A stretch of DNA of 64,000 nt from a virus. Where the stretch lies: IMG/VR virus record IMGVR_UViG_3300024255_000001. The stretch is one strand, 5' to 3'. The translations under genes were made by a program, and so were the position numbers. Of this stretch, positions 10,780 through 23,272 are shown piece by piece (the stretch's first letter is position 1; each line of letters starts with the position of its first letter). The notes beneath the pieces were generated by a model that searched no databases, was not told the DNA's origin, and saw only the letters and a program-made list of their open reading frames with translations.

Positions 10780-11988
10780 TTAAAATAATGCTGATGCGTA
10801 GATCAGGTTAGTGTCTAATGTTTGTAGTCCAATTGCTTTCAATACTCTATTAAGTGGATCTATCATACATTTTTCAAATTGTGTATCAAAATCAACTTGT
10901 GGTGCAATCTCATAAGGATGCTCACCTGGTAGATACGCATAAACTTCTGAGATTGGTGTTTTACAGTTGTAAATTTTTAACTTCTCACCATTACCAATTA
11001 CTTTATACTTATTCTTATATTTTTGATTTTGATTTAAAATATAATTATAGTAGCCAGCTGCTTTTACGTTAGCTGGACATTTTAGTCCTACTTGAAATTC
11101 AATTTGATCGTCGACAATATACTTCTCAATATTATTAGTTCTACGATTAAATGAAATGTCATCGACATCTGCTAGTTGAAATTCTTTTTTAGATGCTTTC
11201 ATAAATGCAACTAATTCTTGTAATTCTTCAGCACCGGGGGTTTTTTGTGATTTAAACAAAATCCTAAGCGCTTCTACTAATTTCTCTCTAGCAAATTTAG
11301 GAGTTGAGGATTGAATAGTATCAAATCCAATGGTCTTTACTTTCTTTAGAGACTTATGTCTATCAGTAACTTCTAGTTTATCGTCCCAAGCAATGTTTTG
11401 AATATACTTTTTCTTTGACATCCAAATACCATTATATGCTAAAGATTCTAATTCAAAGAATAAGAAGTTATCTGTATTTCTAGAAGAGGCATACTTCTTC
11501 ATACATACTGTAATATAATCCTTAAGTCTAAATGCATAGAATGCTAAGATAAACTCATCAAGTGGTAGAGCTTTAGTGTCATCATTCCAAACAATAGTTT
11601 CATATAGATCTTGAAACTGTACGTAACAAGAATCTGTATCAATATAGATTACTGCAGGCTTTTCAACTTTACCTTTTACTGTTAAGCCGAATTGCTCATG
11701 TACTTTAATATCTTTATGCCAAAACTCTTGACAATACTTATTTAAGATAGACTCAGAGTAGAGGATAGCGTTTTTACCCTGTTTTGTAATAGACTCTGCA
11801 ATATCTATATTAAAGAAGTGAAACCATTTGTTACCGAATGCACCATAGATAGAGTTAAGAGTTAATTTTACTGCTTGTTCATAGGCAGTATATTTAGCAG
11901 ACATCTGCTTGTAGTGATCTACAAGCAGCCCTGCCTCTTCTCTACTAAGTTGATCGATAGGTTTCTCAGTGAGTTTTGTTATATCCAT
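10780..11988 (-). CDS. Family B DNA polymerase, C-terminal subunit (gp43B-like)
   Basis: Motif B KLTLNSIYGAFG, motif C YIDTDS, KKKY; lacks the exonuclease domain and motif A. Confidence 0.92.
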   Translation of the reverse strand: MDITKLTEKPIDQLSREEAGLLVDHYKQMSAKYTAYEQAVKLTLNSIYGAFGNKWFHFFNIDIAESITKQGKNAILYSESILNKYCQEFWHKDIKVHEQFGLTVKGKVEKPAVIYIDTDSCYVQFQDLYETIVWNDDTKALPLDEFILAFYAFRLKDYITVCMKKYASSRNTDNFLFFELESLAYNGIWMSKKKYIQNIAWDDKLEVTDRHKSLKKVKTIGFDTIQSSTPKFAREKLVEALRILFKSQKTPGAEELQELVAFMKASKKEFQLADVDDISFNRRTNNIEKYIVDDQIEFQVGLKCPANVKAAGYYNYILNQNQKYKNKYKVIGNGEKLKIYNCKTPISEVYAYLPGEHPYEIAPQVDFDTQFEKCMIDPLNRVLKAIGLQTLDTNLIYASALF

Positions 11989-11989
11989 A

Positions 11990-12733
11990 TTAAGCCGTTT
12001 GGCAAGTAGATACTGTTAATAGTGTATTTGATTCTGTAGATTGGAATACTAACTTAGAGTCAGTAACATGTACTTTTTGTTCTTCTCTATCTAATAGGTT
12101 TAAGTACTTTTTGTAAACTGTTACTGCACCTTCTCCATTAGATTCTGGATTAATTACTGCATTAAATGATTTACCAGTTACAGCAACACCTTTACCATTT
12201 GCTTTTACGCTAAATGTTTCTTCACTATCAAGTCCAAATAAATTCTTTACTTTACCGATGGTATGTGTGTCCATGTTAAAGCTAAACTTAGTATTATCTA
12301 CTGCGAAGATAGCGTCTTGTTGTGCTGGAGTTAAGTCTTTAAAACCTAATGAAGGTTCTGAACATGCAAGTGTAATTTCTAATTCATCATTAAACATTCT
12401 TAGAGATGATGCGATTAACTCGCCCTCTTGTTCAATAAATTCTAACTCACCTTTAATAGCATCGCTTTCAAAGTGTTTAATAGCATCGATTACTTTTGAA
12501 CCTTCAAAGAAGGCAACTTTCATTTCTGCATCTGTGTCTGGCCATTCGCTTACTTGGAAAATCTTATCACAGGCTACAGAATGTGATTTTACTGCATCTC
12601 GTTGTGGAAGATAAACCGCTGAGTGGATCTGGCCGTTTTGGATTTTCATATAGACAAAAGAGTCTATAAGCTTTACTCGGTTAATAAACCCAGTTAAAGC
12701 GTGTTGGTCAATTCGATCAATTTGTAGTTTCAT
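11990..12733 (-). CDS. Probable sliding clamp (T4 gp45-like)
   Basis: 247 aa alpha/beta protein, co-transcribed with the polymerase C-subunit; size and position fit gp45. Confidence 0.55.
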   Translation of the reverse strand: MKLQIDRIDQHALTGFINRVKLIDSFVYMKIQNGQIHSAVYLPQRDAVKSHSVACDKIFQVSEWPDTDAEMKVAFFEGSKVIDAIKHFESDAIKGELEFIEQEGELIASSLRMFNDELEITLACSEPSLGFKDLTPAQQDAIFAVDNTKFSFNMDTHTIGKVKNLFGLDSEETFSVKANGKGVAVTGKSFNAVINPESNGEGAVTVYKKYLNLLDREEQKVHVTDSKLVFQSTESNTLLTVSTCQTA

Positions 12734-12755
12734 CTAAATATATTTTTGTTTGATT

Positions 12756-12783
12756 GTTATATTGGTAAGTTACTAGTTGTTTC
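12756..12783 (-). promoter_or_regulatory. GAAACAA-N15-TATAAC promoter for clamp/polB-C
   Basis: Recurrent bipartite motif. Confidence 0.65.
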
Positions 12784-12785
12784 AT

Positions 12786-12864
12786 AAAAAGTGAGGCCAG
12801 GAAGTAGCGAACCCCTGGCCTCGATCCGAGAACTATCTCGGTCCTAAGAAGTGGACTTAACCAC
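12786..12864 (-). terminator. Three-hairpin nrdA trailer ending in an intrinsic terminator
   Basis: On - strand: GTGG/CCAC, CCGAGA/TCTCGG and GAGGCCAGG/CCTGGCCTC stems, then TTTTT. Confidence 0.7.
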
Positions 12865-12874
12865 AACTGGAATA

Positions 12875-14695
12875 TTAACCGTCACATGCGACGCAATCTG
12901 GGTCTGTAGCGGCTGCGGCAATGTCGCCTCTTAGTACAGATTCAGTTCGCATGTAATAAAGTGTCTTCACTCCCTCTTTGTAAGCCTCTAAGTGTACTTT
13001 ATTAATAAACTTAGTGTCGGCCTCTTTTGGGAATGCTAGATTTAAACTTACAGCCTGGTCAACATATTGTTGTCTAACACCAGCCTGTTTTACTAGATCT
13101 AGTTGATTAATTTCTTTAAATGTCTTAAAGATATTCTTTACTGGAATAAAAAGATCTTGATCTTTCTCTTCTAAATTATCAAATTTAGTCTGAGTAATAA
13201 TATTATCTTTATCTAAAATAGAAGTGGCTAGTTTTACATAGTAGTCTTCAATAAAGTCTAGTCCTTGTACAGAACCTCCGTCTTCTAAAATTTTATCCCA
13301 AGTTTTCTTAGAGTTTTTATTGATTAATTTCAAGAATTGCTCTAATACTGGATTCCTTCTAATAAAAGTACCCTTTGCTGTTTGTTCTGTGAACACGTTA
13401 GCAGCCCAAGGCTCAATCCCTGCAGATACATTACCTGCTAGTTTTGAGTTGCTTACAGTCGGTGCTATGGCTCTCAGGTGAGTGTTTCTCATACCCGTAC
13501 CTCTACACCATAGAGGTTCGCCATATTCATGTGCCATATCTCTAGATGCCTTTTCACTTTCCGTCTTTAACTGTGAAAAAATCTTGCGAGTCTCAAATTG
13601 AGCTGATAAGCCTTCAAATGGAATACCTCTTTCTTGTAAATAAGTATGCCATCCTAAAACTCCAAGTCCTAGAGCTCTACCTTTTTCTGCAGATCTTACT
13701 GAGTTTTCAAAACCTCTCATGAATTTTGCTTTCTGAATAAATTCATCCATAACTCCATCAAGGAACCAGGTAGCAGTGTAAACTAGATCTGTATCTTTCC
13801 ACTCATCATATTTTGCTAAGTTAACTGAGGATAAACAACAAACAAAAGAGTGAGACTCATCTGTATGTAGAGTAATTTCAGAACAGATATTAGTCATATA
13901 AACTTTTAATCCGTTTTGCTTATACGCTTCTGGGTTTGCTCTGTTAATATTACCTTTGAACATTACATAAGGCTCGCCAGTTGCTTTTCTCTTTCTAAGT
14001 ACTGCAACCCATCTTCTTCTAGCCTCTTTATCTCCAGCGTCAATCTTTTCCATAAAACCATCAGGTACTACAATACATTGATGTAGGTTTAAAGATTGTC
14101 TATTGACATCTCCCTTTGGTTCTCTAATTTCTAACCATTCCCAGAAGTCACCATGTTCAATATCGATATTGACAGATGCTGCCCCTCTTCTCACTGAACC
14201 CTGGTTCGTAGCCAAGATTGTTGAGTCATAGATTTTAGTAAATGGAACTACACCATCTGATGTACCATTACCGGTAATCTTACTACCTGCTGGTCTGATT
14301 TGATTAATACCGATACCTACGCCGCCTCCATGTTTTGCTAACAACATCATCTCTAAGTTTTTAGCACCAATGTCGTGGATAGAGTCTGCTACGTCGATAC
14401 CAAAACAAGAAATAGGTAGTCCTCTTTCTAGTCCTGTGTTTGATAGAACTGGACTTGCTAAGTTTAACCAACCCTTCCATATATAATCGAAGAATTTGCT
14501 TGCTAGTTCTGGTTTATTAAGTCGTCTTGCTACTGTAGTAGAAACTCTCCAGTATGCGTCTTTTGGTTTTTCATCACCAAATAGGTAACCTGCTGATATT
14601 GTTTTAACATAAACTTCGGTGTTTGCCCAAAGTGGAAAGTCCACTCCCAGTTCCCAACCGAGATGTTCTCCGTGGTTTTTTATTTTGTCTGCCAT
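12875..14695 (-). CDS. nrdA: Class I ribonucleotide reductase large subunit, no ATP cone
   Basis: SPVLSN, ISCF, TNICSEI (NxCxE), CCLSS, TLYY and C-terminal CVAC. Confidence 0.95.
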   Translation of the reverse strand: MADKIKNHGEHLGWELGVDFPLWANTEVYVKTISAGYLFGDEKPKDAYWRVSTTVARRLNKPELASKFFDYIWKGWLNLASPVLSNTGLERGLPISCFGIDVADSIHDIGAKNLEMMLLAKHGGGVGIGINQIRPAGSKITGNGTSDGVVPFTKIYDSTILATNQGSVRRGAASVNIDIEHGDFWEWLEIREPKGDVNRQSLNLHQCIVVPDGFMEKIDAGDKEARRRWVAVLRKRKATGEPYVMFKGNINRANPEAYKQNGLKVYMTNICSEITLHTDESHSFVCCLSSVNLAKYDEWKDTDLVYTATWFLDGVMDEFIQKAKFMRGFENSVRSAEKGRALGLGVLGWHTYLQERGIPFEGLSAQFETRKIFSQLKTESEKASRDMAHEYGEPLWCRGTGMRNTHLRAIAPTVSNSKLAGNVSAGIEPWAANVFTEQTAKGTFIRRNPVLEQFLKLINKNSKKTWDKILEDGGSVQGLDFIEDYYVKLATSILDKDNIITQTKFDNLEEKDQDLFIPVKNIFKTFKEINQLDLVKQAGVRQQYVDQAVSLNLAFPKEADTKFINKVHLEAYKEGVKTLYYMRTESVLRGDIAAAATDPDCVACDG

Positions 14696-14704
14696 AATTT
14701 AATT

Positions 14705-15706
14705 TTAGTCGAATAAGTCGTCTTCGTCCCAGTTTTCACCTTCGCCAGCTTTAGAATAATCTGTAGATCTAATAGCGAAGAAATCTGTATGAGTATGACC
14801 ACCAGTTAAGTGATAGAACCAATCCAGTTCTCCAGCAGAATCTTCATCGTAATCGAATGCTGGTTCGTAACCAAGCTCTTGTAACTTTTCGTTAACTCTC
14901 TTAGTAATAAAGTTCTTAAGGTCTTTAGCTTTTAAGTTATCTAGATCTCCTTGTTCGAACATCTTATCGATAAACTTATGCTCTAATTCCTTAATAAGCT
15001 CTCCTGCTTTTAATACGTCGGCTTGTACTGATTGTTTCAATTCTGGGAACTCTTCACACATGTGTCTAAATAATCTACATCCCATTCTAGAGTGTAGAGA
15101 TTCATCTCTAACTGACCATTTCATTTGTTGTCCAACGCCTTTTAATAAGTTTCTCATTTGGAATGAGTATAAAACTGCAAAAGAACTATAAAGTGAACAA
15201 CCCTCTGCAAACGCCGAAAAAATCGCAAGAGATCTAGCAACCTCTTTCCTAGCGGTTGCATTAAACTTCAAATCTTCGTGAGTATACGGAGCTGTAGTAG
15301 CTGTTAATAGTTCAAATTTATCTGCAGTTGCAGGTTCATGTAAAAATGCTTCAAAGTCTTCAAGACCTAATGTCTCGTTTAAGTACGAGTATGCTGTTGC
15401 GTGGATAGTTTCCTGCGAGCCAAACATCATTGCCATCTGTTTGATTTCATGTTTTGGAAACCAAGTTGTAACATATTGAGTCCAGTAATCTGATACAGCA
15501 CATTCGGTTTGAGCAAAACCTAATAGGATATTACCTACTAAGTGTTTTTCGTGAGGTAAAAGATTTTCATTCCAATCTTTAACATCACCTTGCATTGATA
15601 TTTCAGTGTGCAGCCAAAAGGCTTGGGCTTGTTTTAGCCAACCTTCTGTATAATATTCTGGATATTCAAATGGTTTAAAGGCAATTCTTTCTGTGAATAA
15701 TGACAT
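14705..15706 (-). CDS. nrdB: Class I ribonucleotide reductase small subunit
   Basis: FW..TE, ETIH..AY (radical Tyr), EG..L...F, RDESLH, DFF motifs. Confidence 0.95.
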   Translation of the reverse strand: MSLFTERIAFKPFEYPEYYTEGWLKQAQAFWLHTEISMQGDVKDWNENLLPHEKHLVGNILLGFAQTECAVSDYWTQYVTTWFPKHEIKQMAMMFGSQETIHATAYSYLNETLGLEDFEAFLHEPATADKFELLTATTAPYTHEDLKFNATARKEVARSLAIFSAFAEGCSLYSSFAVLYSFQMRNLLKGVGQQMKWSVRDESLHSRMGCRLFRHMCEEFPELKQSVQADVLKAGELIKELEHKFIDKMFEQGDLDNLKAKDLKNFITKRVNEKLQELGYEPAFDYDEDSAGELDWFYHLTGGHTHTDFFAIRSTDYSKAGEGENWDEDDLFD

Positions 15707-15748
15707 TTGCTAATTCTTTATTTTTTATTGTTTTCTAATTAATTTAAT

Positions 15749-15856
15749 AAAAAGGTCTTTTAGACCAAAAAAGGTCTTTCCGACCTCATTTAACCTCTAC
15801 TTAAACCTAATAAATTATTAGCAGCGCTGCTATTGATTTATATATCTTTGCGCTGC
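15749..15856 (-). promoter_or_regulatory. nrdBA leader: GATATATA box (15839-15846), 14-bp palindrome (15819-15832), two short hairpins each followed by a U-run
   Basis: TAGCAGCGCTGCTA palindrome; AGGTC-GGAAA-GACCT-TTTTT and GGTCT-AAA-AGACC-TTTTT. Confidence 0.55.
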
Positions 15857-15871
15857 AGAAATTTATTGACT

Positions 15872-17278
15872 TTAGAGCTTAAATTTTTTTTCGATTTCAT
15901 GCGCTTTTTCATAATATGTATAAGAAGTTTTCTTGTAGTCTTTTCTTTGATCATATAGATCTGCTAAAATCTTTTTAAGAATACTATCTTTCTTCTGATA
16001 TACTACGCCATTCTCACAAACAATTACTGCTTCATCTTTACGACGCTCAGCTATTTGCGATTCCTCTACCATTTCAACGAATGAATCGGGCGAGATATTA
16101 AACTGCCTCATGATGGATGGATATAGCGATGCAAAGTCAAATGCACTTACACCACCATAATATCCAACAATTGGTTGTTTAACAAAAGCACCCTCGTACT
16201 TACTATCCTTCTTACCATCTTCTCTATCGTATTCTACACCGATACGTTTACCCTGTTCGGTTAGTTTACGAGCCATTAGAGATTCGGTAACAGCCACTGG
16301 TGAAGCGGCTTTATATAGTGGCATTCTAGTTATTGTTGCTAAAGTAAGCAGTACTTCCATCGATCTAAGCTTTTGATCGATATAGTAAACTAGACATGAG
16401 TCAACCACATTATAGAAAACATACTTTTGAAAGTCGTTTTCATATAGGTCTTGTAAGCTACCACTATATTGTATTTTACTTATACCCTCAAGGACTGCAC
16501 CAGAAACAAATGCTAATGCATTAGATTCTTTTACTGCAACCGATCTATCATATTTATCGTATAATTGCATGTAGTCCAAAATACCCATGTGAAGCGGGCG
16601 AGAGTCTTTTTTATCAAGAGCGCCAGTACAAGCAACTTCTGTTAAATCAATTTGTAAGATTTTACATCTGTTGACAATATACTGCCAGTCATAATTGATA
16701 AAGTTCCAACCTGTCATCATAGGAAATTTAGGTAAAAACTTATGTAAGAAAGCGTAGACCATGTCATACTCGTTCTTAAATTTGTAATAACTAAATTCCC
16801 AATCAGTATCATACCCATTAAAGTGAGCATTCGTATCGGATTCGATCTTATTAATTTGATCGGCCGAAAGATCTTCTAGTCCAAGCACGATTGCTTTTCT
16901 TTCTGGAGTAATAATAGAAAAGGTTAAGATTCTAGACTTAGCCTCTTCAGGTTTGGGGAAGCCATCAACAATCTCTGTCTCAATATCGACAAAGTATGTT
17001 CGTGGCATATTGAACTCAAAGATTTCATCTTGGTCTTTTTGTGGTAGACCGTCCATGAAATAAAGAAGTGAAAACTTATTAAAAGATCTAGAGATAGACT
17101 TCTTAACATGGCGACCATCCCAGTTTCTAACTGTTGCGTCTTTCCATCTGTCATTATCTTTAGCTACAACCCAGTTTTGAAACTTATCAATGTTGTATCT
17201 TTTAAAGGCAACTTCACCCTGTTTATCGTAATATGATACGATTACTTCTTTCTCTCTTTGTTCAATATCTAATAACAT
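15872..17278 (-). CDS. Family B DNA polymerase, N-terminal subunit (3'-5' exonuclease plus motif A; gp43A-like)
   Basis: ExoI DIET, ExoII GWNFINYD, ExoIII YNVVD, YEGAFV, motif A DFASLYPSIM; ends in the first fingers helix. Confidence 0.93.
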   Translation of the reverse strand: MLLDIEQREKEVIVSYYDKQGEVAFKRYNIDKFQNWVVAKDNDRWKDATVRNWDGRHVKKSISRSFNKFSLLYFMDGLPQKDQDEIFEFNMPRTYFVDIETEIVDGFPKPEEAKSRILTFSIITPERKAIVLGLEDLSADQINKIESDTNAHFNGYDTDWEFSYYKFKNEYDMVYAFLHKFLPKFPMMTGWNFINYDWQYIVNRCKILQIDLTEVACTGALDKKDSRPLHMGILDYMQLYDKYDRSVAVKESNALAFVSGAVLEGISKIQYSGSLQDLYENDFQKYVFYNVVDSCLVYYIDQKLRSMEVLLTLATITRMPLYKAASPVAVTESLMARKLTEQGKRIGVEYDREDGKKDSKYEGAFVKQPIVGYYGGVSAFDFASLYPSIMRQFNISPDSFVEMVEESQIAERRKDEAVIVCENGVVYQKKDSILKKILADLYDQRKDYKKTSYTYYEKAHEIEKKFKL

Positions 17279-17742
17279 TAATATCCTCGGTTTTGACGGT
17301 CATGGTTTTCTGCGTTCTTCGCCATGTACAAGTTAACAATATCTTTAGAAGTCATACCAATAGAAATTGCAAAGTTCATATAAAAGTGCAATCCATCGAT
17401 CCATTCATAAAAGAGTTCTAACTTATCTGCCTCTGTCAAATCCTCAATCTTCATGTTCTCTGCTTCTTTGTGTGTGCTTTTCCAATACTTCCAAGCACCA
17501 GAAGCAATACCATCGTTGATACCTCCTAAGGCATCAAACATTTCATTTAGTTCATCACTCATTGCGTGTTTGTTAACACACCAGAAATCTGCAATTTGTT
17601 TTAAGTTCCAACCTGTAAAGTCAAAACCTAAACGCTTTTGTAGTTCTACCTGCTTATTGTAAATCAGGCCTAGTGTGTCATCTGCTTCCGAGTGGAAATC
17701 TTGTACCTCGAGATCGGCACATTTGTTATCTGCGTTCGCCAT
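17278..17742 (-). CDS. All-alpha dUTPase/dCTPase (T4 gp56-like dNTP pyrophosphatase)
   Basis: ELNE...WKYWK...EWID...KNAENHDRQ..GY motifs. Confidence 0.8.
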   Translation of the reverse strand: MANADNKCADLEVQDFHSEADDTLGLIYNKQVELQKRLGFDFTGWNLKQIADFWCVNKHAMSDELNEMFDALGGINDGIASGAWKYWKSTHKEAENMKIEDLTEADKLELFYEWIDGLHFYMNFAISIGMTSKDIVNLYMAKNAENHDRQNRGY

Positions 17743-17758
17743 ATATTTTTATTTGTAT

Positions 17759-17786
17759 TTTATAGTTAAAATTATTTATCTGTTTC
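17759..17786 (-). promoter_or_regulatory. GAAACAG-N15-TATAAA promoter for dUTPase/polB-N
   Basis: Recurrent bipartite motif. Confidence 0.6.
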
Positions 17787-18668
17787 AATTTCTTGTCCCC
17801 AATCTCTATAAGAATCTGTTAACAATTTTGTGTTAATATCTTTTGGTTTGGGATCTCCACCCACATTCCAAAACCAGGCACCAGGACTTCCATGCTTTGT
17901 CATAAACTCCCAAGCCTTCGCATCGTAATTCATAGCCGATGGAAATGGTGGATTATATTGTGGGTCTACATCTTGTGTAAATGCTTTTGGATGTGACCAA
18001 ATAGTTGCAATACCTCTTTCGCCCTTCTTAATATTTCTTGCTACTGCAACTCCATTAAACTTAGCATCAGGCCAAGCTATTTGTAAAGAGCGTTGTAGAA
18101 CGCCAGTGGATATTGCTGACCATACTTCTTCTGGATAACCATGTTTCTCTGCAAGATCATGTGCGACCTTCACAGCGGCTGCTGTAACCAATTCATGGCG
18201 AAGTCCTAAAGGAATAAAAAATGCATTGTTTGACTCTGCCCATTTCTTAGCGTGAGCATTTAAGACTGGCATTGCTGCAATTCTCTTAAATTTCATTTCA
18301 GCTCCCATCTCAACACAAATGGCTTGATGGTCTGAAATCTCTTTTTGACTTGGACTAAATAGTACAAGTTTCTTATTATACTTCTTTGCTAAATAAGCAA
18401 GTGAGATACCTGCAAATCCATATCTAGGTTGGACATAGACTAGAGTATCTTGTTTACAAGTACTAACTAGAATATCTCCAAATCTACACTTAGAACCAAA
18501 ACCCATTAGGTCTTCTCTGACTACTTTAAATCCATCATGGTCTACTAATTGTGGAGCCTCAAATGGATCTTGCCAATCACCTGCTAAATCCAACCATGCC
18601 TGTTTGTTCGGCATCATCAGATTTAGATCCTGGTTCATAAGTAATTCTGTGTGGTTATTATGCGCCAT
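17772..18668 (-). CDS. PLP-dependent enzyme (fold type II) of the kind found in phage base-hypermodification clusters
   Basis: VVREDL..GSKCR (Schiff-base Lys), SAISTG phosphate loop, YDAKAW, FWNVG. Confidence 0.7.
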   Translation of the reverse strand: MAHNNHTELLMNQDLNLMMPNKQAWLDLAGDWQDPFEAPQLVDHDGFKVVREDLMGFGSKCRFGDILVSTCKQDTLVYVQPRYGFAGISLAYLAKKYNKKLVLFSPSQKEISDHQAICVEMGAEMKFKRIAAMPVLNAHAKKWAESNNAFFIPLGLRHELVTAAAVKVAHDLAEKHGYPEEVWSAISTGVLQRSLQIAWPDAKFNGVAVARNIKKGERGIATIWSHPKAFTQDVDPQYNPPFPSAMNYDAKAWEFMTKHGSPGAWFWNVGGDPKPKDINTKLLTDSYRDWGQEIETDK

Positions 18669-19887
18669 AAAATTCTGCTACTTTTTTCTTATATGCTTCT
18701 ACTGTTATACCAGCTTCTGCAATTATTTTATCATCGGAAGGATGGTGTTTCATTCCATTAAATGTTTCTACTAGCCCTAAGTCTAACATTGCTTTTTGTC
18801 TACCGAATGGATGGTCTTTAATTACTGAAGAATTCCAAACTCCGTCCATATCAATATGTGCGTAGTCAGCTCCTGGTCTCATATAGTTTTCAATCCATCT
18901 AATAAAGTCACATGCTACATCTTCTGCGTTATACGGCAGAGAGCCTGTTTGTTCATATATTTTAGTCATCACTGCATCTAGAAAAGGTTCTGATTTCTTA
19001 CCCTTGCCTTCTACAGGATCTGCTAGATAACCAATACATTCTATTGCATTCGTACCATAGTAGAACATTGAGTCCTTATTAACATACTGTGGAAACCAAT
19101 CTGCTACATCTGCTAAGACTGCTGCATATTGGAATTTATATTGTCTTAATCCGTTTGCAACATTCCAATCAAACATCCATTGGCCCAATTCTCTTAGGTC
19201 TTTCTTACCACCCTCTTCTAAGAACTTAGCCATATCTCTAGCTAAGCGTGGTGCAAATTCACATAGGAAATAATCACCGCCTCTCTTGTAAGTAAACTGA
19301 GGGCCTTCGAACCCCGTCATCCCAACAAAGACTTCCTCGTTTTGCTGTGGAATTGGGGGTTTTGGGAATGCTGGGAATTGATACCCAACTGAAGTGTAGA
19401 ATGGCTTGGTTGCTGCCTTAACCTGCTCACACATTTGTTCTATAGAATCAGATTGCCACAAGTCGAATAGTAGCGTGTTGTGATAGCCGCTAGGCTTGGT
19501 AGCATAGTTAATTGCAGATCCACATACTCTATGCAGTATGAATAAGTAGAGCCATTCTGGTAGGCCGAAGACATCTTGTTTACCAGTCCAGTTGGTAGCG
19601 ACTTCCTTGCGCTGTTCCGTAACTAAACCAGCCTGCATTCTTGGCCAATACGGATGTGCTTCAGTCCAACCGTAAAAAGCATCATTCACGATTTGACTAA
19701 ACCCAGCATACTTCCTTTCAACCACATCATACAGCTCGATATGTTCCATCAGCGGATCGTCCATCCTGGACTCGGCATGTGGAATATGGCCTAGGTTACT
19801 CTTTTTCTGCTGGTCTAAGGCTAACTCATAATACCTGATAAACTCATCATAGTATTTAGTAGTCTTAATTTTACACGTCGTACTCAT
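18658..19887 (-). CDS. aGPT-Pplase-like (amine/amino acid:DNA transferase, glycosylase-like helical fold)
   Basis: DDPL...DVVER, LHR, FQYAAVLAD, GTNA..C, AEDVACDF.RW occur in the order of the aGPT-Pplase1 pattern (DPIL..NVxR, FR, F....D, GPGA, E..LCEF.KY); coupled to the PLP enzyme. Confidence 0.5.
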   Translation of the reverse strand: MSTTCKIKTTKYYDEFIRYYELALDQQKKSNLGHIPHAESRMDDPLMEHIELYDVVERKYAGFSQIVNDAFYGWTEAHPYWPRMQAGLVTEQRKEVATNWTGKQDVFGLPEWLYLFILHRVCGSAINYATKPSGYHNTLLFDLWQSDSIEQMCEQVKAATKPFYTSVGYQFPAFPKPPIPQQNEEVFVGMTGFEGPQFTYKRGGDYFLCEFAPRLARDMAKFLEEGGKKDLRELGQWMFDWNVANGLRQYKFQYAAVLADVADWFPQYVNKDSMFYYGTNAIECIGYLADPVEGKGKKSEPFLDAVMTKIYEQTGSLPYNAEDVACDFIRWIENYMRPGADYAHIDMDGVWNSSVIKDHPFGRQKAMLDLGLVETFNGMKHHPSDDKIIAEAGITVEAYKKKVAEFYGA

Positions 19888-20053
19888 TCACTTCTAGTAT
19901 TTCCCAATTTAAGGCTCTCCGGTTTCTTTGATATTGTTCCATCGACCATTCAATATTGTCTGTTGTCAACTCAATATTATATGGAGCATCTCCGCGACCG
20001 AAAGTTTTTTCTATTGCAAGATTAGGTGTTATTTTAATTTTATATGTTTTCAT
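19871..20053 (-). CDS. Small hypothetical protein
   Basis: 60 aa, overlaps neighbours on both sides. Confidence 0.6.
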   Translation of the reverse strand: MKTYKIKITPNLAIEKTFGRGDAPYNIELTTDNIEWSMEQYQRNRRALNWEILEVNEYDV

Positions 20054-20226
20054 ATTTGGTTGCCAAGTATCTGTCTCGTATTTAATTCAGAAGCTATTGT
20101 AGCCGCTGCCGATAACAGATGATTAAGGTTATGCTTTAATAAACTATCAGAGATATTCTCATCTCCATAAGTCTGTAAACTATTATGTGCAATTTCTACA
20201 CTTTGTTTAATACCGTTTATATCCAT
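20050..20226 (-). CDS. Small hypothetical protein (58 aa, not in ORF track)
   Basis: MDINGIKQSVEIAHNSL...LGNQI; ATGA overlap with the next gene. Confidence 0.6.
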   Translation of the reverse strand: MDINGIKQSVEIAHNSLQTYGDENISDSLLKHNLNHLLSAAATIASELNTRQILGNQI

Positions 20227-20236
20227 GTTATTATTT

Positions 20237-20401
20237 TTAATTATTCCATCTTCTTAAGATATTCCAAACAATTAATATATTACAAATTATAGCTTGTAAT
20301 ACAATAAGTGTCCTAAACACCGCAACAGCATCTGCCTTTTTATCGTCCTCTCCGGCTTTTTCACCAAGCGCTCTTGCCCAGTACTTCCAAAGCTTTTTCA
20401 T
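20237..20401 (-). CDS. Small membrane protein of the WxxWAxALGEK type (54 aa, not in ORF track)
   Basis: MKKLWKYWARALGEKAGEDDKKADAVAVFRTLIVLQAIICNILIVWNILRRWNN; one hydrophobic helix. Confidence 0.7.
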   Translation of the reverse strand: MKKLWKYWARALGEKAGEDDKKADAVAVFRTLIVLQAIICNILIVWNILRRWNN

Positions 20402-20403
20402 TT

Positions 20404-21480
20404 TTAGAAAAGTGCTTGAGTTACTGGCTTTAATTTCTGATTGGGTTCATCTTTTGCTAAATCCCAACGATAATACTCACGAGCGATATGAACTGACTTA
20501 GGCTTTTCCATTACGTCAAATGTTAACTCTCCAAAAGAGTTTAAAAAGACTGTTGGGTGTTGCCATGTTGACCATCCATTTCTCTCGCACATTGCTTCTA
20601 CTAACTTGTTAAATTCTTTTACAAGTTCAGTTCTCTCTGCCCAAGTACCAGCAAAAGGAGTACCTTTATAGTAGCCGGTTTTTGGTAGAGGTCTAGACTC
20701 ATTCTCAATTGGAAGAGCCTGAATAACTTCAATATTTTCGATTTCTAAATCGATTAATTGTTTTTCATAATTAGATACCATATCCTTTAAAGATTTCGAT
20801 GGATTATCTTGTCTCATTAGGTGGTGTCTTATATCTATATTCCCTAGATATATGCGTAGTGTTGTAATATTTTCTGGTACATAAGATCTAATACCTCTTC
20901 TTAAAGTTCCAAAAAGAGTTAGGCCATCATGTCTATCAGTCATATAACCAGGTGTATATTGGCTAAAACTATGCGAGTCTCCAAAACAGAGTTTATCTGT
21001 ATTTTGTATTCTATCTACTTTAGGAATACTAGCACATATTGCCTTAGCGTCTTCTATTTGTGTCTCAAGTGTTTTAAAAAGATCTGAACCTGTCTTTAAA
21101 CGTTTCTCAATTAGAGTACCTACACAAGGCATATCATGGTGGAGCGAATACATTCGTATACCGGGAGCGAACATTCTAATGATTTGATGGTATAAGTCAT
21201 CGTTCGCCCCACCGAAGATATTAAAATTGCCTTTAAATTCCATTCCGTGTTCAATAAGAATCACGTCGAAATCGTCTGCCTTCCAAGCTGAGCTATCTGT
21301 AATTACAGAAACACTGAAGTAACCAGCATGTTTTAATTGATTTGCTAGATGGAATGCCCATCCAGATTTATGTGAAGTTAGTTTGCTACTAAGTTTTCCA
21401 ACTAGTGCAGAAATACCGACACGTATATTAGTGTCTTTCTCTAGATCTGAAAAATAGACTAGGTTATTATTTGTCTCCAT
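20404..21480 (-). CDS. Two-domain protein: BGT-like N-terminal domain plus SGNH-hydrolase/acyltransferase-like domain
   Basis: N-half DDFDVILI...FNIFGG...MYSLHHDMP; C-half FGDSH, G, GNID, SVH blocks. Confidence 0.5.
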   Translation of the reverse strand: METNNNLVYFSDLEKDTNIRVGISALVGKLSSKLTSHKSGWAFHLANQLKHAGYFSVSVITDSSAWKADDFDVILIEHGMEFKGNFNIFGGANDDLYHQIIRMFAPGIRMYSLHHDMPCVGTLIEKRLKTGSDLFKTLETQIEDAKAICASIPKVDRIQNTDKLCFGDSHSFSQYTPGYMTDRHDGLTLFGTLRRGIRSYVPENITTLRIYLGNIDIRHHLMRQDNPSKSLKDMVSNYEKQLIDLEIENIEVIQALPIENESRPLPKTGYYKGTPFAGTWAERTELVKEFNKLVEAMCERNGWSTWQHPTVFLNSFGELTFDVMEKPKSVHIAREYYRWDLAKDEPNQKLKPVTQALF

Positions 21481-21799
21481 ATCCAGCGTTTGCGTCAGTT
21501 AAATTAATTGGCTTTTCAGTTTCACCATAGCCATACTTCTTAATATAATTGTCAAGACCGCCGATGTATGCGACAGCATCTAGAAGATTATCTTCTTTAT
21601 AGTTGTAAGAATGTCTGCTTAATTTAAGTGCGACAAGCGCTGCATACATATCGGAACCTGACCATTCTTTACCGGTCATTCCTGAACAGATCATCGCGGC
21701 ACGTCTCATGCCTTCTTCGAAAGGACCGTACATACGTTCTTTCTCTTCGGATCTGTTGTTAATAATTTCGTCTGCTGTTTTTAGAATGTTCTTGCTCAT
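21467..21799 (-). CDS. DUF6378-like all-alpha protein (possible nucleotide pyrophosphohydrolase)
   Basis: IL..A..II..R...YG...LKLSR....DNLLDAVAY pattern. Confidence 0.6.
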   Translation of the reverse strand: MSKNILKTADEIINNRSEEKERMYGPFEEGMRRAAMICSGMTGKEWSGSDMYAALVALKLSRHSYNYKEDNLLDAVAYIGGLDNYIKKYGYGETEKPINLTDANAGYGDK

Positions 21800-21823
21800 A
21801 AAATAACTAATTAAATCTTAATT

Positions 21824-21851
21824 ATTATAGAGAAGAATGCTAGTTTGTTTC
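21824..21851 (-). promoter_or_regulatory. GAAACAA-N15-TATAAT promoter for the modification operon
   Basis: Recurrent motif; 19 bp identical to the promoter at 22559-22586. Confidence 0.7.
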
Positions 21852-21852
21852 A

Positions 21853-22536
21853 CTAATTAATATTAATATGGACAATAACTTCGTTGTAGTATTCTAGGAA
21901 ACGTTCGTTCCATAGGTTCCATTTAATATCAGTACCATCTATTGCATAAATTTCATGGTTAGGGAAAAGTTTAAGATATAAATCTCTGAACTGTCTGAAT
22001 TTTTCTTTAGTCTCTGGTGTGTTTAAATGCCACTCTCCGACTACAAAATCTACATTATCTTTTATCCAAAATAAATTATCGACGTTAAAAATATCATATT
22101 CTCCTCCTTCGCAATCTGTTTTTAAGAAGTTAATTCTATCAATATTATTTTCTTTTATTAGGGTATCGAACCTAATAGATGGTATTTCTATATTTTGTCC
22201 ATTAGCACCAAATACTTCACTAATAGTAATAGTACCATCTACTGGTCCGATACCCTTTTCAATAATGGTTACATTATCTTGGTACACATTTTCCTTTAGA
22301 GTCTCATGTTCTAAATGAGATGGCTCTACGCAAATAACTTGTTTTGGATCTTTATTAAGAATACTATATGTAAATGGACCGATGCTTGCTCCTATATCTA
22401 AAACCACATCATCGGCTTTTACCTCTCTAACCTGTTCATAACATTTATCAATAAAGATCTCTTGAACTAAAGAGTTTTTATGCATTTTAGCTAGATTGGT
22501 AAATTCGTCCATCCAGCCCCATTTAAAAATAGCCAT
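21853..22536 (-). CDS. FkbM-family SAM-dependent methyltransferase
   Basis: VLDIGASIG, VEP, LKTDCEGGE, EWH motifs. Confidence 0.88.
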   Translation of the reverse strand: MAIFKWGWMDEFTNLAKMHKNSLVQEIFIDKCYEQVREVKADDVVLDIGASIGPFTYSILNKDPKQVICVEPSHLEHETLKENVYQDNVTIIEKGIGPVDGTITISEVFGANGQNIEIPSIRFDTLIKENNIDRINFLKTDCEGGEYDIFNVDNLFWIKDNVDFVVGEWHLNTPETKEKFRQFRDLYLKLFPNHEIYAIDGTDIKWNLWNERFLEYYNEVIVHININ

Positions 22537-22558
22537 ATAATTTTATTGGTATTATCTA

Positions 22559-22586
22559 GTTATACTCAAGAATGCTAGTTTGTTTC
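22559..22586 (-). promoter_or_regulatory. GAAACAA-N15-TATAAC promoter for the FkbM gene
   Basis: Recurrent motif; duplicate of 21824-21851. Confidence 0.7.
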
Positions 22587-23272
22587 TAGAGTTCGTAGAT
22601 AACCGGGACTCCATTTTCAATACAAAGATACTCGTAAGGAAGTGTATCAATAAAATAGTGGTTATCGTCATAGTCAATTAGATGCATGTGTGTATGTCCT
22701 ACGATTTGAATCCAAGACTCATGAAGAGGAGAACTTTTTAGAGATCTAGGGCGAATCCACATTGGACCTTCTCCTGGATCGTCACCGTAAATATTCTTAC
22801 CCCCATGATTAAAAGACCTCTTATCGTAGGACCAAAGCTCATTAACTTGATCTGCAATATCACCCAATCTACTATTATCTGGAAATACAGACTCGTACCA
22901 TTCTTTAGAAATACCAGCATGTGAAAATAGGTATCTACCAGAAGAATATGCAACTTGTAAATGGTGTTTATTTTCTTTTAATAGTTCACTAATTTCTGGA
23001 GCGAACATATAGTTATAGCCGCCATATCGGCCACCACACTCTGACATATAATGGAAATCGTGATTACCAATTAACATAGTAACTTTAATCTTTGATGCTT
23101 CTTTCCACTCAATAATCTCTTTAAAATTAAAGATCTGCTCAGCATGTGAAACAGAGAACGAGTCAAAGTAATCACCAATGAATACAAACTCAGTAGCATC
23201 ACCATGTGTTTGCATAATTCGCTTCCATGAATCATGTCCATGAATATCTCCAATAACTACTATTTTACTCAT
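22586..23272 (-). CDS. Calcineurin-like metallophosphoesterase
   Basis: GDIHG, GDYFD, GNHD, HAG, GHT motifs. Confidence 0.9.
   Translation of the reverse strand: MSKIVVIGDIHGHDSWKRIMQTHGDATEFVFIGDYFDSFSVSHAEQIFNFKEIIEWKEASKIKVTMLIGNHDFHYMSECGGRYGGYNYMFAPEISELLKENKHHLQVAYSSGRYLFSHAGISKEWYESVFPDNSRLGDIADQVNELWSYDKRSFNHGGKNIYGDDPGEGPMWIRPRSLKSSPLHESWIQIVGHTHMHLIDYDDNHYFIDTLPYEYLCIENGVPVIYEL

What the first reader, a model, noticed from the sequence alone, without database searches (positions are those of the whole stretch)
17278..23272. Candidate new DNA hypermodification pathway next to the polymerase
Seen: contiguous genes for a phosphoesterase, FkbM methyltransferase, DUF6378-like protein, BGT-N/SGNH protein, aGPT-Pplase-like transferase, fold-II PLP enzyme and dUTPase/dCTPase, leading into polB-N. 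Known: in ViI, M6, PaMx11, phiW-14 and SP10, 5hmdU in DNA is phosphorylated by a kinase, substituted by an aGPT-Pplase, and in ViI/M6 decarboxylated by a PLP enzyme. Different here: the transferase looks closer to clade 1 yet is paired with a PLP enzyme, an SGNH-type enzyme is present, and no 5hmU DNA kinase or hydroxymethylase occurs in the window. Inference: an undescribed amino-acid-derived, possibly acylated or methylated, pyrimidine.
Basis: partly seen in the sequence, partly recalled or inferred. Interest (0 to 1): 0.85.

Follow-up and report, generated by a model that had tools for sequence, protein, structure and literature searches.

The report
Candidate hydroxymethylcytosine hypermodification gene cluster
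A marine T4-like jumbo phage carries, next to its DNA polymerase, a conserved gene set related to the enzymes that decorate thymine in phages M6 and ViI. The set has a different activating partner and most likely acts on 5-hydroxymethylcytosine, which would be a DNA modification route not yet described.

Summary
The 409-aa protein matches no Pfam model. It folds with high confidence (pLDDT 93), and its best solved match is PaMx11 gp46, the 5-PmdU glycinyltransferase (Z 10.4). It keeps an invariant Cys. Its motif resembles aGPT-Pplase clade 1 (now Pfam HMUDK_hel) more than clade 2. The 298-aa PLP enzyme belongs to the same PHROG as the M6 gp52 DNA decarboxylase. The 154-aa protein is a homolog of the T4 gp56 dCTPase. 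The 358-aa protein has a true SGNH C-terminal domain; the resemblance to the BGT N-domain was not supported.

Three results are new.
- The 358-aa and 409-aa proteins occur fused in seven metagenomic clusters and probably in Aeromonas phage 44RR ORF233c.
- In 49 related loci the 358 / 409 / PLP trio stays together. The FkbM gene is a repeat-flanked cassette found only in this lineage.
- Relatives encode a canonical ThyA plus a thymidylate-synthase homolog with the T4 gp42 signature, and no 5-hmdU DNA kinase.

The likely substrate is therefore 5hmC, not 5hmU. The chemistry is inferred, not shown. This is a new variant of a known kind. Other first-stage notes of this scan cover the same genome; none was a tested result.

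The parts
22586..23272 (-). Calcineurin-like metallophosphoesterase, 228 aa. An accessory gene, not part of the core.
   Evidence: PF00149 at 2e-13. A homolog lies next to the cluster in only 14 of 49 related loci. It is present in the near-identical ENA contigs L069 and L070.
21853..22536 (-). FkbM-family SAM methyltransferase, 227 aa. A lineage-specific cassette.
   Evidence: PF05050 at 4.5e-12. It is absent from 0 of 49 IMG/VR loci searched, that is, found in none. It is present only in the near-identical ENA contigs.
21825..21851 (.). Right-hand copy of a 27-nt direct repeat flanking the FkbM gene. The partner copy is at 22560-22586.
   Evidence: the repeat finder family D1: two copies, 89% identical, 735 nt apart, exactly bracketing the FkbM ORF.
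22560..22586 (.). Second copy of the 27-nt direct repeat flanking FkbM.
21467..21799 (-). DUF6378 protein, 110 aa, function unknown. Conserved neighbour whose end overlaps the start of the 358-aa gene.
   Evidence: PF19905 at 1.4e-9. Adjacent in 41 of 49 related loci. The family is widespread in unrelated phages.
20404..21480 (-). P358, a two-domain protein. The N-terminal domain is Rossmann-like alpha/beta (about residues 1-155). The C-terminal domain is SGNH/GDSL (about 160-347), with invariant G167-D168-S169-H170, G213-N214-x-D216 and H331. Proposed enzyme acting on the hydroxymethyl group together with P409.
   Evidence: AF2 pLDDT 82. SGNH esterases and O-acetyltransferases match at Z 9-11.7 over residues 160-347. 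Invariant columns. phrog_13881 at 6e-58. Fused to a P409-like domain in seven clusters. Adjacent in 45 of 49 loci.
19871..20401 (-). Three small ORFs of 54, 58 and 60 aa between P358 and P409. They vary among relatives and have no family.
   Evidence: Relatives carry 0 to 3 small ORFs here.
18658..19887 (-). P409, an all-alpha protein of the aGPT-Pplase / HhH-glycosylase-like superfamily from a new clade nearest clade 1 (HMUDK_hel). E322 and C326 are invariant within an E-D-V-x-C-D-x-I-R-Y motif. Proposed base-flipping, Cys-dependent C5-substituting enzyme.
   Evidence: No Pfam hit. AF2 pLDDT 93. The top BFVD match is an 'Amino acid:DNA transferase domain' protein, followed by Pplase1 and HMUDK_hel proteins. 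VIA gives Z 10.4 to 8z2n (PaMx11 gp46), then AGOG/OGG at Z about 8. Invariant residues. Motif comparison.
17772..18668 (-). P298, a fold-type II PLP enzyme of the M6 gp52 / ViI gp226 family of on-DNA amino-acid decarboxylases. Lys60 is invariant. Its start overlaps the end of P409.
   Evidence: phrog_7093 at 6.4e-42. M6 gp52 matches the same phrog at 2e-159. Full-length alignment with M6 gp52 shows the conserved Lys and the C-terminal PFP..YD.KAW..FWN.G signature. Adjacent in 42 of 49 loci.
17278..17742 (-). P154, a homolog of T4 gp56 dCTPase/dUTPase (all-alpha NTP pyrophosphatase). It ends 1 nt into the PolB-N start.
   Evidence: BLASTP to T4 gp56: 36% identity, 2e-23. 1439 phage records match, mostly annotated gp56 or dCTPase. 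PF08761 and phrog_173.
15872..17278 (-). N-terminal half of a split family-B DNA polymerase (exonuclease domain plus motif A region). Marks the downstream end of the cluster.
   Evidence: PF03104 and PF00136. The C-terminal half is at 10780-11988.

Best explanation
The core genes are DUF6378, P358, P409, P298 and P154, lying directly upstream of the DNA polymerase. They most likely form a module that hypermodifies cytosine in the phage's own DNA.

Step 1, before replication (supported by homology). The gp56-type dCTPase P154 depletes dCTP. A gp42-type dCMP hydroxymethylase encoded elsewhere in the genome supplies 5hmdC nucleotides. It was seen in relatives but lies outside this window. The DNA is therefore made with 5hmC, while T stays canonical because a normal ThyA is present.

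Step 2, after replication (inferred). P409 is a glycosylase-like helical protein of the aGPT-Pplase superfamily with an invariant Cys. It flips out the base and works with P358, to which it is fused in other viruses. P358's SGNH domain takes the place of the P-loop kinase of the thymidine systems. It probably makes an ester, such as an acetyl ester, on the 5-hydroxymethyl group as a leaving group. P409 then replaces that group with an amino acid, by Cys attack at C6 and an exocyclic-methylene intermediate as shown for M6 gp51 and PaMx11 gp46.

Step 3 (by homology with M6 gp52 and ViI gp226). The PLP enzyme P298 decarboxylates the appended amino acid and leaves an amine-bearing side chain on cytosine.

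The FkbM methyltransferase, the phosphoesterase, a second distant P409 paralog and a LOG-like protein are lineage-specific extras. They may tailor the product.
For: Fold and motif.
- P409 has its best solved match in the 5-PmdU glycinyltransferase PaMx11 gp46 (Z 10.4, 211 residues aligned), ahead of HhH glycosylases.
- Its best viral matches are AADT, Pplase1 and HMUDK_hel proteins.
- E322 and C326 are invariant in 44 homologs down to 22% identity. A conserved Cys in a similar motif context lies near the C-terminus in clade 2 (E-T-x-x-C) and clade 1 (C-E-x-D-K-Y); hhalign placed it on the Cys of M6 gp55 (clade 1) but not on that of clade 2.

PLP enzyme.
- P298 and the experimentally characterised M6 gp52 belong to the same PHROG.
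- The two align end to end with the Lys conserved.
- A homologous PLP domain is fused to a DNA N6/N4 methylase in Erythrobacter phage R6L.

Functional linkage.
- All seven long-form (639-790 aa) 50%-identity clusters that matched P409 carry P358-like and P409-like halves in one protein, and all keep GDSH.
- Aeromonas phage 44RR ORF233c is P358-like at its N-terminus and weakly HMUDK_hel-like at its C-terminus.
- P358, P409 and PLP stay together in 45 and 42 of 49 loci, even where the gene order differs (L048, L049).
- Gene ends overlap within the window.

Cytosine as the target.
- P154 is a T4 gp56 homolog.
- Contig G002 has the same cluster layout (P409 85% identical). It carries a ThyA (3e-94) and a thymidylate-synthase homolog whose closest solved relative is T4 dCMP hydroxymethylase.
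- P0459 shares its fingerprint (25 contigs, longest 177,339 bp) with the contig that has the window's exact gene order. It carries L143D, a retained D169 and N177D, like T4 gp42. This differs from the ThyA next to it and from M6 gp58, which has Asn at 177. The diagnostic residues are those given in bioRxiv 10.1101/2025.06.16.659550.

No P-loop kinase.
- PF18748 is absent from five large relatives and from an 88%-complete 260-kb relative.
Against: - No chemistry was measured, and there is no cultured isolate.
- The window's own genome outside these 64 kb could not be searched. The hydroxymethylase is therefore inferred from relatives.
- P409 gives no significant profile match to clade-2 AADTs (hhalign probability 0.5%). 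Its match to clade 1 is weak (probability 6%). One family member matches PF18723 at E 0.01.
- Clade 1 proteins such as M6 gp55 were dispensable for transfer in vitro (PMC8989533). P409 may therefore be only a DNA-binding helper and not a transferase.
- The conserved Cys is a feature of the whole superfamily and does not separate these two roles.
- SGNH enzymes are more often hydrolases than acyltransferases, and no acyl donor is evident.
- gp56 homologs also occur in T4-like phages without hmC.
- A kinase of another family could lie elsewhere. One example is a 146-aa APS-kinase-like gene near ThyA in L071.
Confidence: 0.55

Rival explanations
1. This is a classical thymidine hypermodification. 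The cluster acts on 5hmU in DNA, as in ViI, M6 and PaMx11, with an unrecognised kinase encoded elsewhere.
For: Every characterised aGPT-Pplase/AADT and gp52-type PLP enzyme acts on 5hmdU-derived bases (PMC8989533; PMC11472151). The best structural match is a 5-PmdU transferase. The genomes are incomplete, so a kinase could have been missed. An APS-kinase-like gene exists in relatives.
Against: Relatives encode a canonical ThyA and a dCMP-type (Asp177-equivalent) hydroxymethylase, not a dUMP-type one like M6 gp58. The cluster includes a gp56 dCTPase homolog. No PF18748 kinase, PF18723 or PF18724 match was found in relatives, including a genome that is 88% complete.
Confidence: 0.12
2. There is no amino-acid transfer. 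P358 and P409 together form a single 5hmC-DNA O-acyltransferase or esterase, with P409 serving only as the base-flipping module, like the helical domain of 5-HMUDK. The final product is an O-acylated 5hmC or another small ester. The PLP enzyme acts on something else, or on a different adduct.
For: P409 is nearer clade 1, the kinase helper domain, than clade 2. The recurrent P358-P409 fusions mirror the kinase-helical-domain fusions. Aeromonas phages carry the fusion, and tblastn with P298 at E<=1e-3 found no PLP homolog in them, although this search also missed M6 gp52. SGNH relatives include the O-acetyltransferases OatA and PatB.
Against: The PLP enzyme of the gp52 family is kept next to P409 in 42 of 49 loci and its start overlaps the end of P409. 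This family is known only as a decarboxylase of amino-acid adducts on DNA. P409 keeps an invariant Cys and Glu, which a pure binding module would not need.
Confidence: 0.18
3. This is not a DNA-modification pathway. The genes are unrelated auxiliary or repair functions that happen to sit together: a DNA glycosylase, a metabolic PLP enzyme, a polysaccharide or lipid esterase and a house-cleaning NTPase.
For: P409 also resembles 8-oxoguanine glycosylases (Z about 8). The PALP Pfam hit is below its cut-off. SGNH enzymes are mostly esterases. DUF6378 is common in unrelated phages.
Against: The P358-P409 gene fusions, the conserved adjacency across 49 loci with rearranged order, and the specific PHROG shared with M6 gp52 all argue against it. 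So does the PLP-DNA methylase fusion in another phage. The position among replication and nucleotide genes is equivalent to b-gt/42 next to gene 43 in T4.
Confidence: 0.1

Closest known systems
Thymidine hypermodification systems of Pseudomonas phage M6, Salmonella phage ViI and Pseudomonas phage PaMx11 (5-HMUDK kinase, aGPT-Pplase2/AADT, PLP decarboxylase). Lee et al. 2018 and 2021; PDB 8z2m and 8z2n.
   Same: Both have a glycosylase-like helical enzyme with a conserved Cys (Z 10.4 to PaMx11 gp46). Both have a PLP enzyme of the same PHROG as M6 gp52. Both cluster next to replication and nucleotide-metabolism genes. In both, a thymidylate-synthase homolog supplies a hydroxymethyl pyrimidine.
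   Different: There is no Pfam AADT (PF18724) match and no profile similarity to clade 2. No P-loop 5-hmdU DNA kinase is present. The partner is instead an SGNH two-domain protein. The hydroxymethylase is of the dCMP type and a ThyA is present, so the base is probably C and not T.
aGPT-Pplase clade 1, now Pfam PF18723 'HMUDK_hel', the helical domain of 5-hmdU DNA kinase. Examples are M6 gp55 and SP10 gp186.
   Same: The fold class is the same (Foldseek probability 0.84-1.0 to phiRSL1, SP10 and phiW-14 proteins). The motif is similar, with a Cys followed by an acidic residue and a basic-aromatic pair. It occurs as a C-terminal domain fused to the enzyme that acts on the hydroxymethyl group.
   Different: P409 itself does not reach the Pfam model. 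The fusion partner is SGNH/Rossmann and not a P-loop kinase. P409 is longer (about 400 aa against about 300) and has an invariant Glu four residues before the Cys.
The T4 cytosine modification module: gp56 dCTPase, gp42 dCMP hydroxymethylase and alpha/beta-glucosyltransferases.
   Same: A gp56 homolog lies in the cluster. A gp42-like enzyme with the same diagnostic residues occurs in relatives. The position directly upstream of the DNA polymerase gene matches b-gt and 42 in T4.
   Different: No glucosyltransferase homolog was detected. The enzymes predicted to act after replication are of the aGPT-Pplase, SGNH and PLP types. Similarity of the P358 N-domain to BGT was not supported.
Aeromonas phage 44RR2.8t ORF233c (795 aa, hypothetical; phrog_17781) and homologs in Aeromonas, Stenotrophomonas and Tenacibaculum T4-like phages.
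   Same: The N-terminal half is 30-35% identical to P358. The C-terminus weakly matches HMUDK_hel (E 0.0036). The phage also has td and a gp42-like gene.
   Different: Here the two halves are fused into one protein. tblastn with P298 found no gp52-type PLP enzyme in these phages. hhalign of the P409 family against its C-terminal half was not significant. The protein has not been characterised experimentally.

Membership tests
Amino acid:DNA transferase (aGPT-Pplase clade 2, Pfam PF18724 ADDT) | Match to the family HMM or profile | tested here: not met
   P409 has no Pfam hit even at E<=10, and none of 44 homologs hits PF18724. hhalign of the P409-family alignment against an alignment of 8 known AADTs gives probability 0.5%. 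PF18724 is absent from five relatives' contigs. M6 gp51 as a control scores 1.4e-46.
Amino acid:DNA transferase (aGPT-Pplase clade 2, Pfam PF18724 ADDT) | Two-helix-bundle, HhH-glycosylase-like fold as in PaMx11 gp46 (PDB 8z2m/8z2n) | tested here: met
   VIA-align Z 10.4, rmsd 3.8 A, 211 residues aligned to 8z2n_B. This is the top solved match, ahead of AGOG/OGG at Z about 8. The model has pLDDT 93.
Amino acid:DNA transferase (aGPT-Pplase clade 2, Pfam PF18724 ADDT) | Essential catalytic Cys with a nearby essential Glu (M6 gp51, ViI gp247, PaMx11 Cys247) | tested here: inconclusive
   E322 and C326 are invariant in 44 homologs, and the E-x3-C spacing resembles E-T-x-x-C of AADTs. However, hhalign did not align the two motifs, and no residue-level structural superposition was available.
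Amino acid:DNA transferase (aGPT-Pplase clade 2, Pfam PF18724 ADDT) | Co-occurrence with a P-loop 5-hmdU DNA kinase (PF18748) | tested here: not met
   There is no hit in the window, in five large relatives or in an 88%-complete 260-kb relative. In the one PF18748 search that printed its control tally nothing rang anywhere, so absence is not strictly proven.
HMUDK_hel (aGPT-Pplase clade 1, Pfam PF18723) | Match to the family HMM | tested here: inconclusive
   P409 gives no hit. One of 44 family members hits at E 0.01. The C-terminus of 44RR ORF233c hits at E 0.0036, below the cut-off. hhalign against M6 gp55 gives E 0.006 and probability 6%, with the Cys motifs aligned. PF18723 was not found in relatives' contigs.
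HMUDK_hel (aGPT-Pplase clade 1, Pfam PF18723) | Conserved C-terminal Cys-acidic-x-x-basic-Tyr motif | tested here: met
   Five clade-1 proteins show C-E-x-[DS]-K-Y. The P409 family consensus is C-D-x-I-R-Y.
HMUDK_hel (aGPT-Pplase clade 1, Pfam PF18723) | Fused or adjacent to the P-loop kinase domain | tested here: not met
   The partner, whether adjacent or fused, is the SGNH two-domain protein P358. No P-loop kinase is present.
gp52/gp226-type PLP-dependent decarboxylase acting on DNA (phrog_7093; fold-type II PLP) | Family profile match over the full length and a conserved Schiff-base Lys | tested here: met
   phrog_7093 at 6.4e-42 covers 7-278 of 279 profile positions. M6 gp52 matches the same phrog at 2e-159. 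The alignment shows invariant Lys60 and a shared C-terminal signature. The Pfam PALP score of 25.5 bits is below the cut-off of 35.
gp52/gp226-type PLP-dependent decarboxylase acting on DNA (phrog_7093; fold-type II PLP) | Decarboxylates an amino-acid adduct on a DNA base | not testable with these tools
   This needs biochemical reconstitution.
T4 gp56 dCTPase/dUTPase | Sequence homology to T4 gp56 | tested here: met
   36% identity and E 2e-23 to T4 gp56. 1439 phage records match, many of them annotated gp56 or dCTPase. Substrate preference was not tested.
SGNH/GDSL hydrolase superfamily (C-terminal domain of P358) | SGNH fold with block I GDS(H) and block III G-x-N-D | tested here: met
   Z 9-11.7 to more than 40 SGNH structures over residues 160-347. 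G167-D168-S169-H170 and G213-N214-I215-D216 are invariant. The Pfam Lipase_GDSL match is only E 0.23. The classical D-x-x-H block V was not seen; H331 is invariant.
T4 beta-glucosyltransferase N-terminal (acceptor) domain | Profile or structural similarity of P358 residues 1-155 to the BGT N-domain | tested here: inconclusive
   hhalign of the P358 family against T4 BGT gives probability 2% and aligns only the C-halves. The fold searches were dominated by the SGNH domain, so the N-domain was barely tested.
T4 gp42-type dCMP hydroxymethylase (in relatives, not in the window) | Catalytic Cys, L143D/E, retained D169 and N177D (E. coli ThyA numbering) | tested here: met
   P0459, G002 and G006 homologs show D-F-V-C, M-R-S-N-D and Asp at the 177 position. 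The neighbouring ThyA and M6 gp58 have Asn there. The criteria come from bioRxiv 10.1101/2025.06.16.659550. No such gene occurs in the window itself.

The most novel reading that the evidence does not exclude
An abundant lineage of marine T4-like jumbo phages replaces C with 5hmC. It then converts the 5hmC, on the DNA, into an amino-acid-derived (amine-bearing) cytosine. The hydroxymethyl group is activated by acyl transfer through an SGNH enzyme and not by phosphorylation. That enzyme is paired or fused with a new clade of the aGPT-Pplase superfamily. A gp52-type PLP decarboxylation follows. This would be the first aGPT-Pplase/PLP hypermodification of cytosine and the first DNA-base activation by an SGNH acyltransferase.
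Probability: 0.25. Interest if true: 0.88.

Novelty: new variant of a known kind. Interest (0 to 1): 0.72.

Why it matters
Every characterised aGPT-Pplase/PLP hypermodification acts on thymidine and starts with a P-loop DNA kinase. A cytosine-directed version with a different activating enzyme would widen the known chemistry of natural DNA.

It would supply new enzymes for site-selective derivatisation of 5hmC, which is useful for epigenetic mapping. It would help explain how very common marine phages evade restriction and CRISPR; about 930 close homologs exist in metagenomes. It would also warn that virome sequencing and long-read base-calling of this lineage may be biased.

The work assigns a testable role to three families without annotation: the P409 clade, phrog_13881/17781 including Aeromonas phage 44RR ORF233c, and clade-1 Pplase-like domains.

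Tried and rejected
- Nucleotide and protein searches of cultured phage genomes with the cluster and with P409 found nothing. The window's own assembly is not held. The nearest record, G001, is a 31-kb fragment without the gene.
- Sequence search of P409, P298 and DUF6378 against PDB gave nothing useful.
- Foldseek against PDB alone gave no significant match for P409. The relation appeared only with BFVD and VIA-align.
- hhalign of the P409 family against M6 gp51 and against an 8-member AADT alignment gave no match. hhalign against 44RR ORF233c also gave none.
- BLASTP of P409 against the 362-375-aa extra gene of relatives was not significant. hhalign gave probability 65% and E 6e-5 with the Cys motif aligned, so that gene is treated as a probable distant paralog.
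- The BGT N-domain idea for P358 was not supported by hhalign. The protein-atlas look-up of the N-domain gave nothing.
- Complex prediction on P358 plus P409 returned 'no answer'. It is not used as evidence either way.
- A thymidylate-synthase search in five short contigs of the closest relatives found nothing. These contigs cover only 11-21% of a genome, so this is uninformative. The ENA 177-kb contig could not be searched whole.
- The thymidylate-synthase homolog of the 260-kb relative G012 aligned poorly around the diagnostic residues and was not interpreted.
- Literature searches for a described cytosine pathway with these enzymes, for 44RR hmC chemistry, for SGNH with hmC and for DUF6378 function found nothing relevant.

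Full report
**Setting.** The window has a low GC content (about 34%), and almost all genes lie on the minus strand. It encodes T4-type replication and recombination proteins: gp32, UvsW, a DnaB-like helicase, a UvsX/RecA-like protein, gp46/47-like proteins and class I ribonucleotide reductase. It also encodes a family-B polymerase split into two genes. Relatives are metagenomic marine contigs of up to 260 kb. CheckV rates a 149-kb relative as 43% complete and a 260-kb one as 88% complete, so this is a jumbo T4-like phage lineage. The window's own assembly is not held. No cultured phage matches at the DNA level.

**Checking the observation.**
- Metallophos, FkbM, DUF6378, dUTPase_2 and PolB-N all pass Pfam thresholds.
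- The PLP enzyme is below the Pfam PALP cut-off but matches phrog_7093 at 6e-42.
- The 358-aa and 409-aa proteins have no Pfam family.
- The window has no thymidylate-synthase homolog, no HMUDK kinase, no clade-2 AADT and no T4 BGT homolog.

**The 409-aa protein (P409).** About 930 close homologs exist in metagenomes, at 72-96% identity. An exhaustive search found 143 cluster representatives down to about 25% identity. An alignment of 44 full-length members has nine invariant residues, including E322 and C326 in a motif E-D-V-x-C-D-x-I-R-Y.

AlphaFold2 gave an all-alpha model with pLDDT 93. In BFVD the best match is a 57%-identical protein that UniProt names 'Amino acid:DNA transferase domain-containing'. 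Next come Pplase1 and 5-hmdU DNA kinase helical-domain proteins of phiRSL1, SP10 and phiW-14, at probability 0.84-1.0. Among solved structures VIA-align ranks PaMx11 gp46, the 5-PmdU glycinyltransferase, first (Z 10.4). HhH 8-oxoguanine glycosylases follow at Z about 8.

At sequence level P409 is not a clade-2 AADT. Pfam PF18724 does not match it, and a profile-profile comparison with eight known AADTs is null. It leans towards clade 1, now Pfam HMUDK_hel, on four points:
- One family member hits PF18723 at E 0.01.
- hhalign to M6 gp55 aligns the Cys motifs.
- Clade-1 proteins share C-E-x-D-K-Y, against C-D-x-I-R-Y in P409.

The caveat is that M6 gp55 was dispensable for amino-acid transfer in lysates (PMC8989533). 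The catalytic role of P409 is therefore inferred.

**The PLP enzyme.** M6 gp52, the experimentally defined PLP-dependent decarboxylase of glycinyl-thymine in DNA, is the archetype of phrog_7093 (2e-159). P298 matches that profile almost end to end. It aligns with gp52 with an invariant Lys60 and a shared C-terminal signature. The nearest cultured-phage homologs are PLP domains fused to an N6/N4 DNA methylase in Erythrobacter phages. This also points to DNA as the substrate.

**The 358-aa protein (P358).** The model (pLDDT 82) has a Rossmann-like N-domain and a C-domain that matches more than 40 SGNH esterases and O-acetyltransferases at Z 9-11.7. GDSH and GNID blocks and H331 are invariant. 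The proposed likeness of the N-half to T4 BGT was not recovered by hhalign, and the fold searches could not test it.

The key new result is a set of natural fusions. All seven long-form (639-790 aa) 50%-identity cluster representatives among the P409 hits are P358-like at the N-terminus (29-42% identity, E down to 1e-90, GDSH kept) and P409-like at the C-terminus. The 795-aa ORF233c of Aeromonas phage 44RR2.8t and its many T4-like relatives is P358-like at the N-terminus and weakly HMUDK_hel-like at the C-terminus. That phage also carries td and a gp42-like gene. The pair 'SGNH two-domain enzyme plus helical domain' therefore parallels 'P-loop kinase plus helical domain' in 5-HMUDK.

**Conservation of the cluster.** The table gives how many of the 49 IMG/VR loci carrying a P409 homolog also carry each neighbour. 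Most absences are at contig ends.

| Neighbour | Loci (of 49) |
|---|---|
| P358 | 45 |
| PLP enzyme | 42 |
| DUF6378 | 41 |
| gp56-like | 30 |
| PolB-N | 30 |
| Second, distant P409 paralog | 19 |
| Metallophosphoesterase | 14 |
| LOG-like protein | 8 |
| FkbM methyltransferase | 0 |

In the divergent loci L048 and L049 the genes stay together in a different order. The second paralog gave hhalign probability 65% with its Cys motif aligned. FkbM occurs only in the window and in near-identical ENA contigs, and a 27-nt direct repeat brackets it. It is thus a recently inserted cassette and not a core step.

**Which base.** P154 is a clear homolog of T4 gp56 dCTPase. Contig G002 has exactly the window's core layout, with P409 85% identical. 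It encodes a canonical ThyA (3e-94) and a second thymidylate-synthase homolog whose best solved relative is T4 dCMP hydroxymethylase.

A 287-aa homolog, P0459, shares its contig fingerprint (25 contigs, longest 177,339 bp) with the ENA contig that reproduces the window's gene order, including FkbM. It shows Asp at the L143 position, a retained D169 and Asp at the N177 position, as in T4 gp42. The adjacent ThyA has Leu at 143 and Asn at 177, and the dUMP hydroxymethylase M6 gp58 has Asn at 177. By the criteria in bioRxiv 10.1101/2025.06.16.659550 this is a 5hmdCMP synthase and not a 5-hydroxy-dCMP synthase. No PF18748 kinase was found in any relative. In T4 the genes b-gt and 42 sit directly upstream of gene 43. 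Here the cluster occupies the equivalent place upstream of PolB.

**Mechanism and confidence.** The homology-supported steps are dCTP removal, 5hmdC supply (in relatives) and a gp52-type PLP step. The inferred steps are activation of the hydroxymethyl group by the SGNH enzyme and Cys-dependent substitution by P409. I give about 0.55 to a 5hmC-directed, amino-acid-derived hypermodification. The rivals are:
- an acylated 5hmC without amino-acid transfer, 0.18;
- a classical 5hmU pathway with a hidden kinase, 0.12;
- unrelated functions, 0.10.

The complex prediction for P358 and P409 gave no verdict and is not used.

**Comparison and novelty.** The system works like the M6/ViI/PaMx11 thymidine pathways. 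It fails the membership tests for AADT (HMM, kinase partner) and is only marginal for HMUDK_hel. It differs in its likely base, its activating enzyme and its host virus group. No paper in the searchable library describes it. I rate it a new variant of a known kind, with high interest that depends on chemical confirmation.

**Earlier notes of this scan.** First-stage notes on the same genome proposed the SGNH chimera, the FkbM repeat, the split polymerase and a dCMP deaminase beyond the window. I confirmed the first three in part or in full. I did not test the last.

Noticed in passing
window 10780-17278: The family-B DNA polymerase is split into two genes (N-half 15872-17278, C-half 10780-11988). 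They are separated by nrdB, nrdA and a 247-aa ORF. The same split and order recur in all relatives examined.
   Followed up: partly
window 21825-21851 and 22560-22586: A 27-nt direct repeat (89% identical, with a 19-nt exact core) brackets the FkbM methyltransferase gene exactly. The gene is absent from all 49 related IMG/VR loci, so it looks like an inserted cassette.
   Followed up: yes
L001:11206-13016 and L004:11212-12300 (relatives): Many relatives carry, between the P409 ortholog and the PLP gene, an extra 362-375-aa distant paralog with its own E-D-x-x-C motif. Some also carry a LOG/SLOG-like (Lysine_decarbox) protein. The window lineage lacks both.
   Followed up: partly
L059 (Erythrobacter phage vB_EliS_R6L gp1, KY006853): A roughly 805-aa protein annotated 'DNA modification methylase' combines an N6_N4 DNA methylase domain with a PLP domain 36% identical to P298. 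This is a methylase-PLP fusion of unknown chemistry.
   Followed up: partly
L058:6061-8448 (Aeromonas phage 44RR2.8t ORF233c): This 795-aa hypothetical protein of cultured T4-like Aeromonas phages is a fusion of a P358-like half with a weakly HMUDK_hel-like half. It lies next to a sodium:solute symporter-like gene. The phage has td and a gp42-like gene, so it offers a culturable model for this enzyme pair.
   Followed up: partly
L071 and L057 (relatives): The gp42-like gene of relatives sits between a ClpB-like AAA+ protein (670 aa) and a ClpP-like protease (225 aa). A ThyA, an APS-kinase-like 146-aa P-loop protein and a small glycosyltransferase-like gene lie nearby.
   Followed up: no
window 8351-8929: A 192-aa 2OG-Fe(II) oxygenase (PF13640, prolyl-hydroxylase type) lies among the replication genes. 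It is not of the TET/JBP type, and no link to the cluster was found.
   Followed up: no
window 44001-46088: A 695-aa protein carries collagen-like repeats, a BACON domain and a Listeria-Bacteroides repeat. This hints at a Bacteroidota host.
   Followed up: no
window 28780-30639: A 619-aa protein has a C-terminal cytidylyltransferase-like (HIGH nucleotidyltransferase) domain. It is conserved upstream of the cluster in relatives (L004, L069).
   Followed up: no
L079 (G012, 260-kb relative, 88% complete): The only thymidylate-synthase family member in this near-complete relative is highly divergent (6.8e-18) and aligns poorly at the diagnostic residues. No canonical ThyA was found there.
   Followed up: partly
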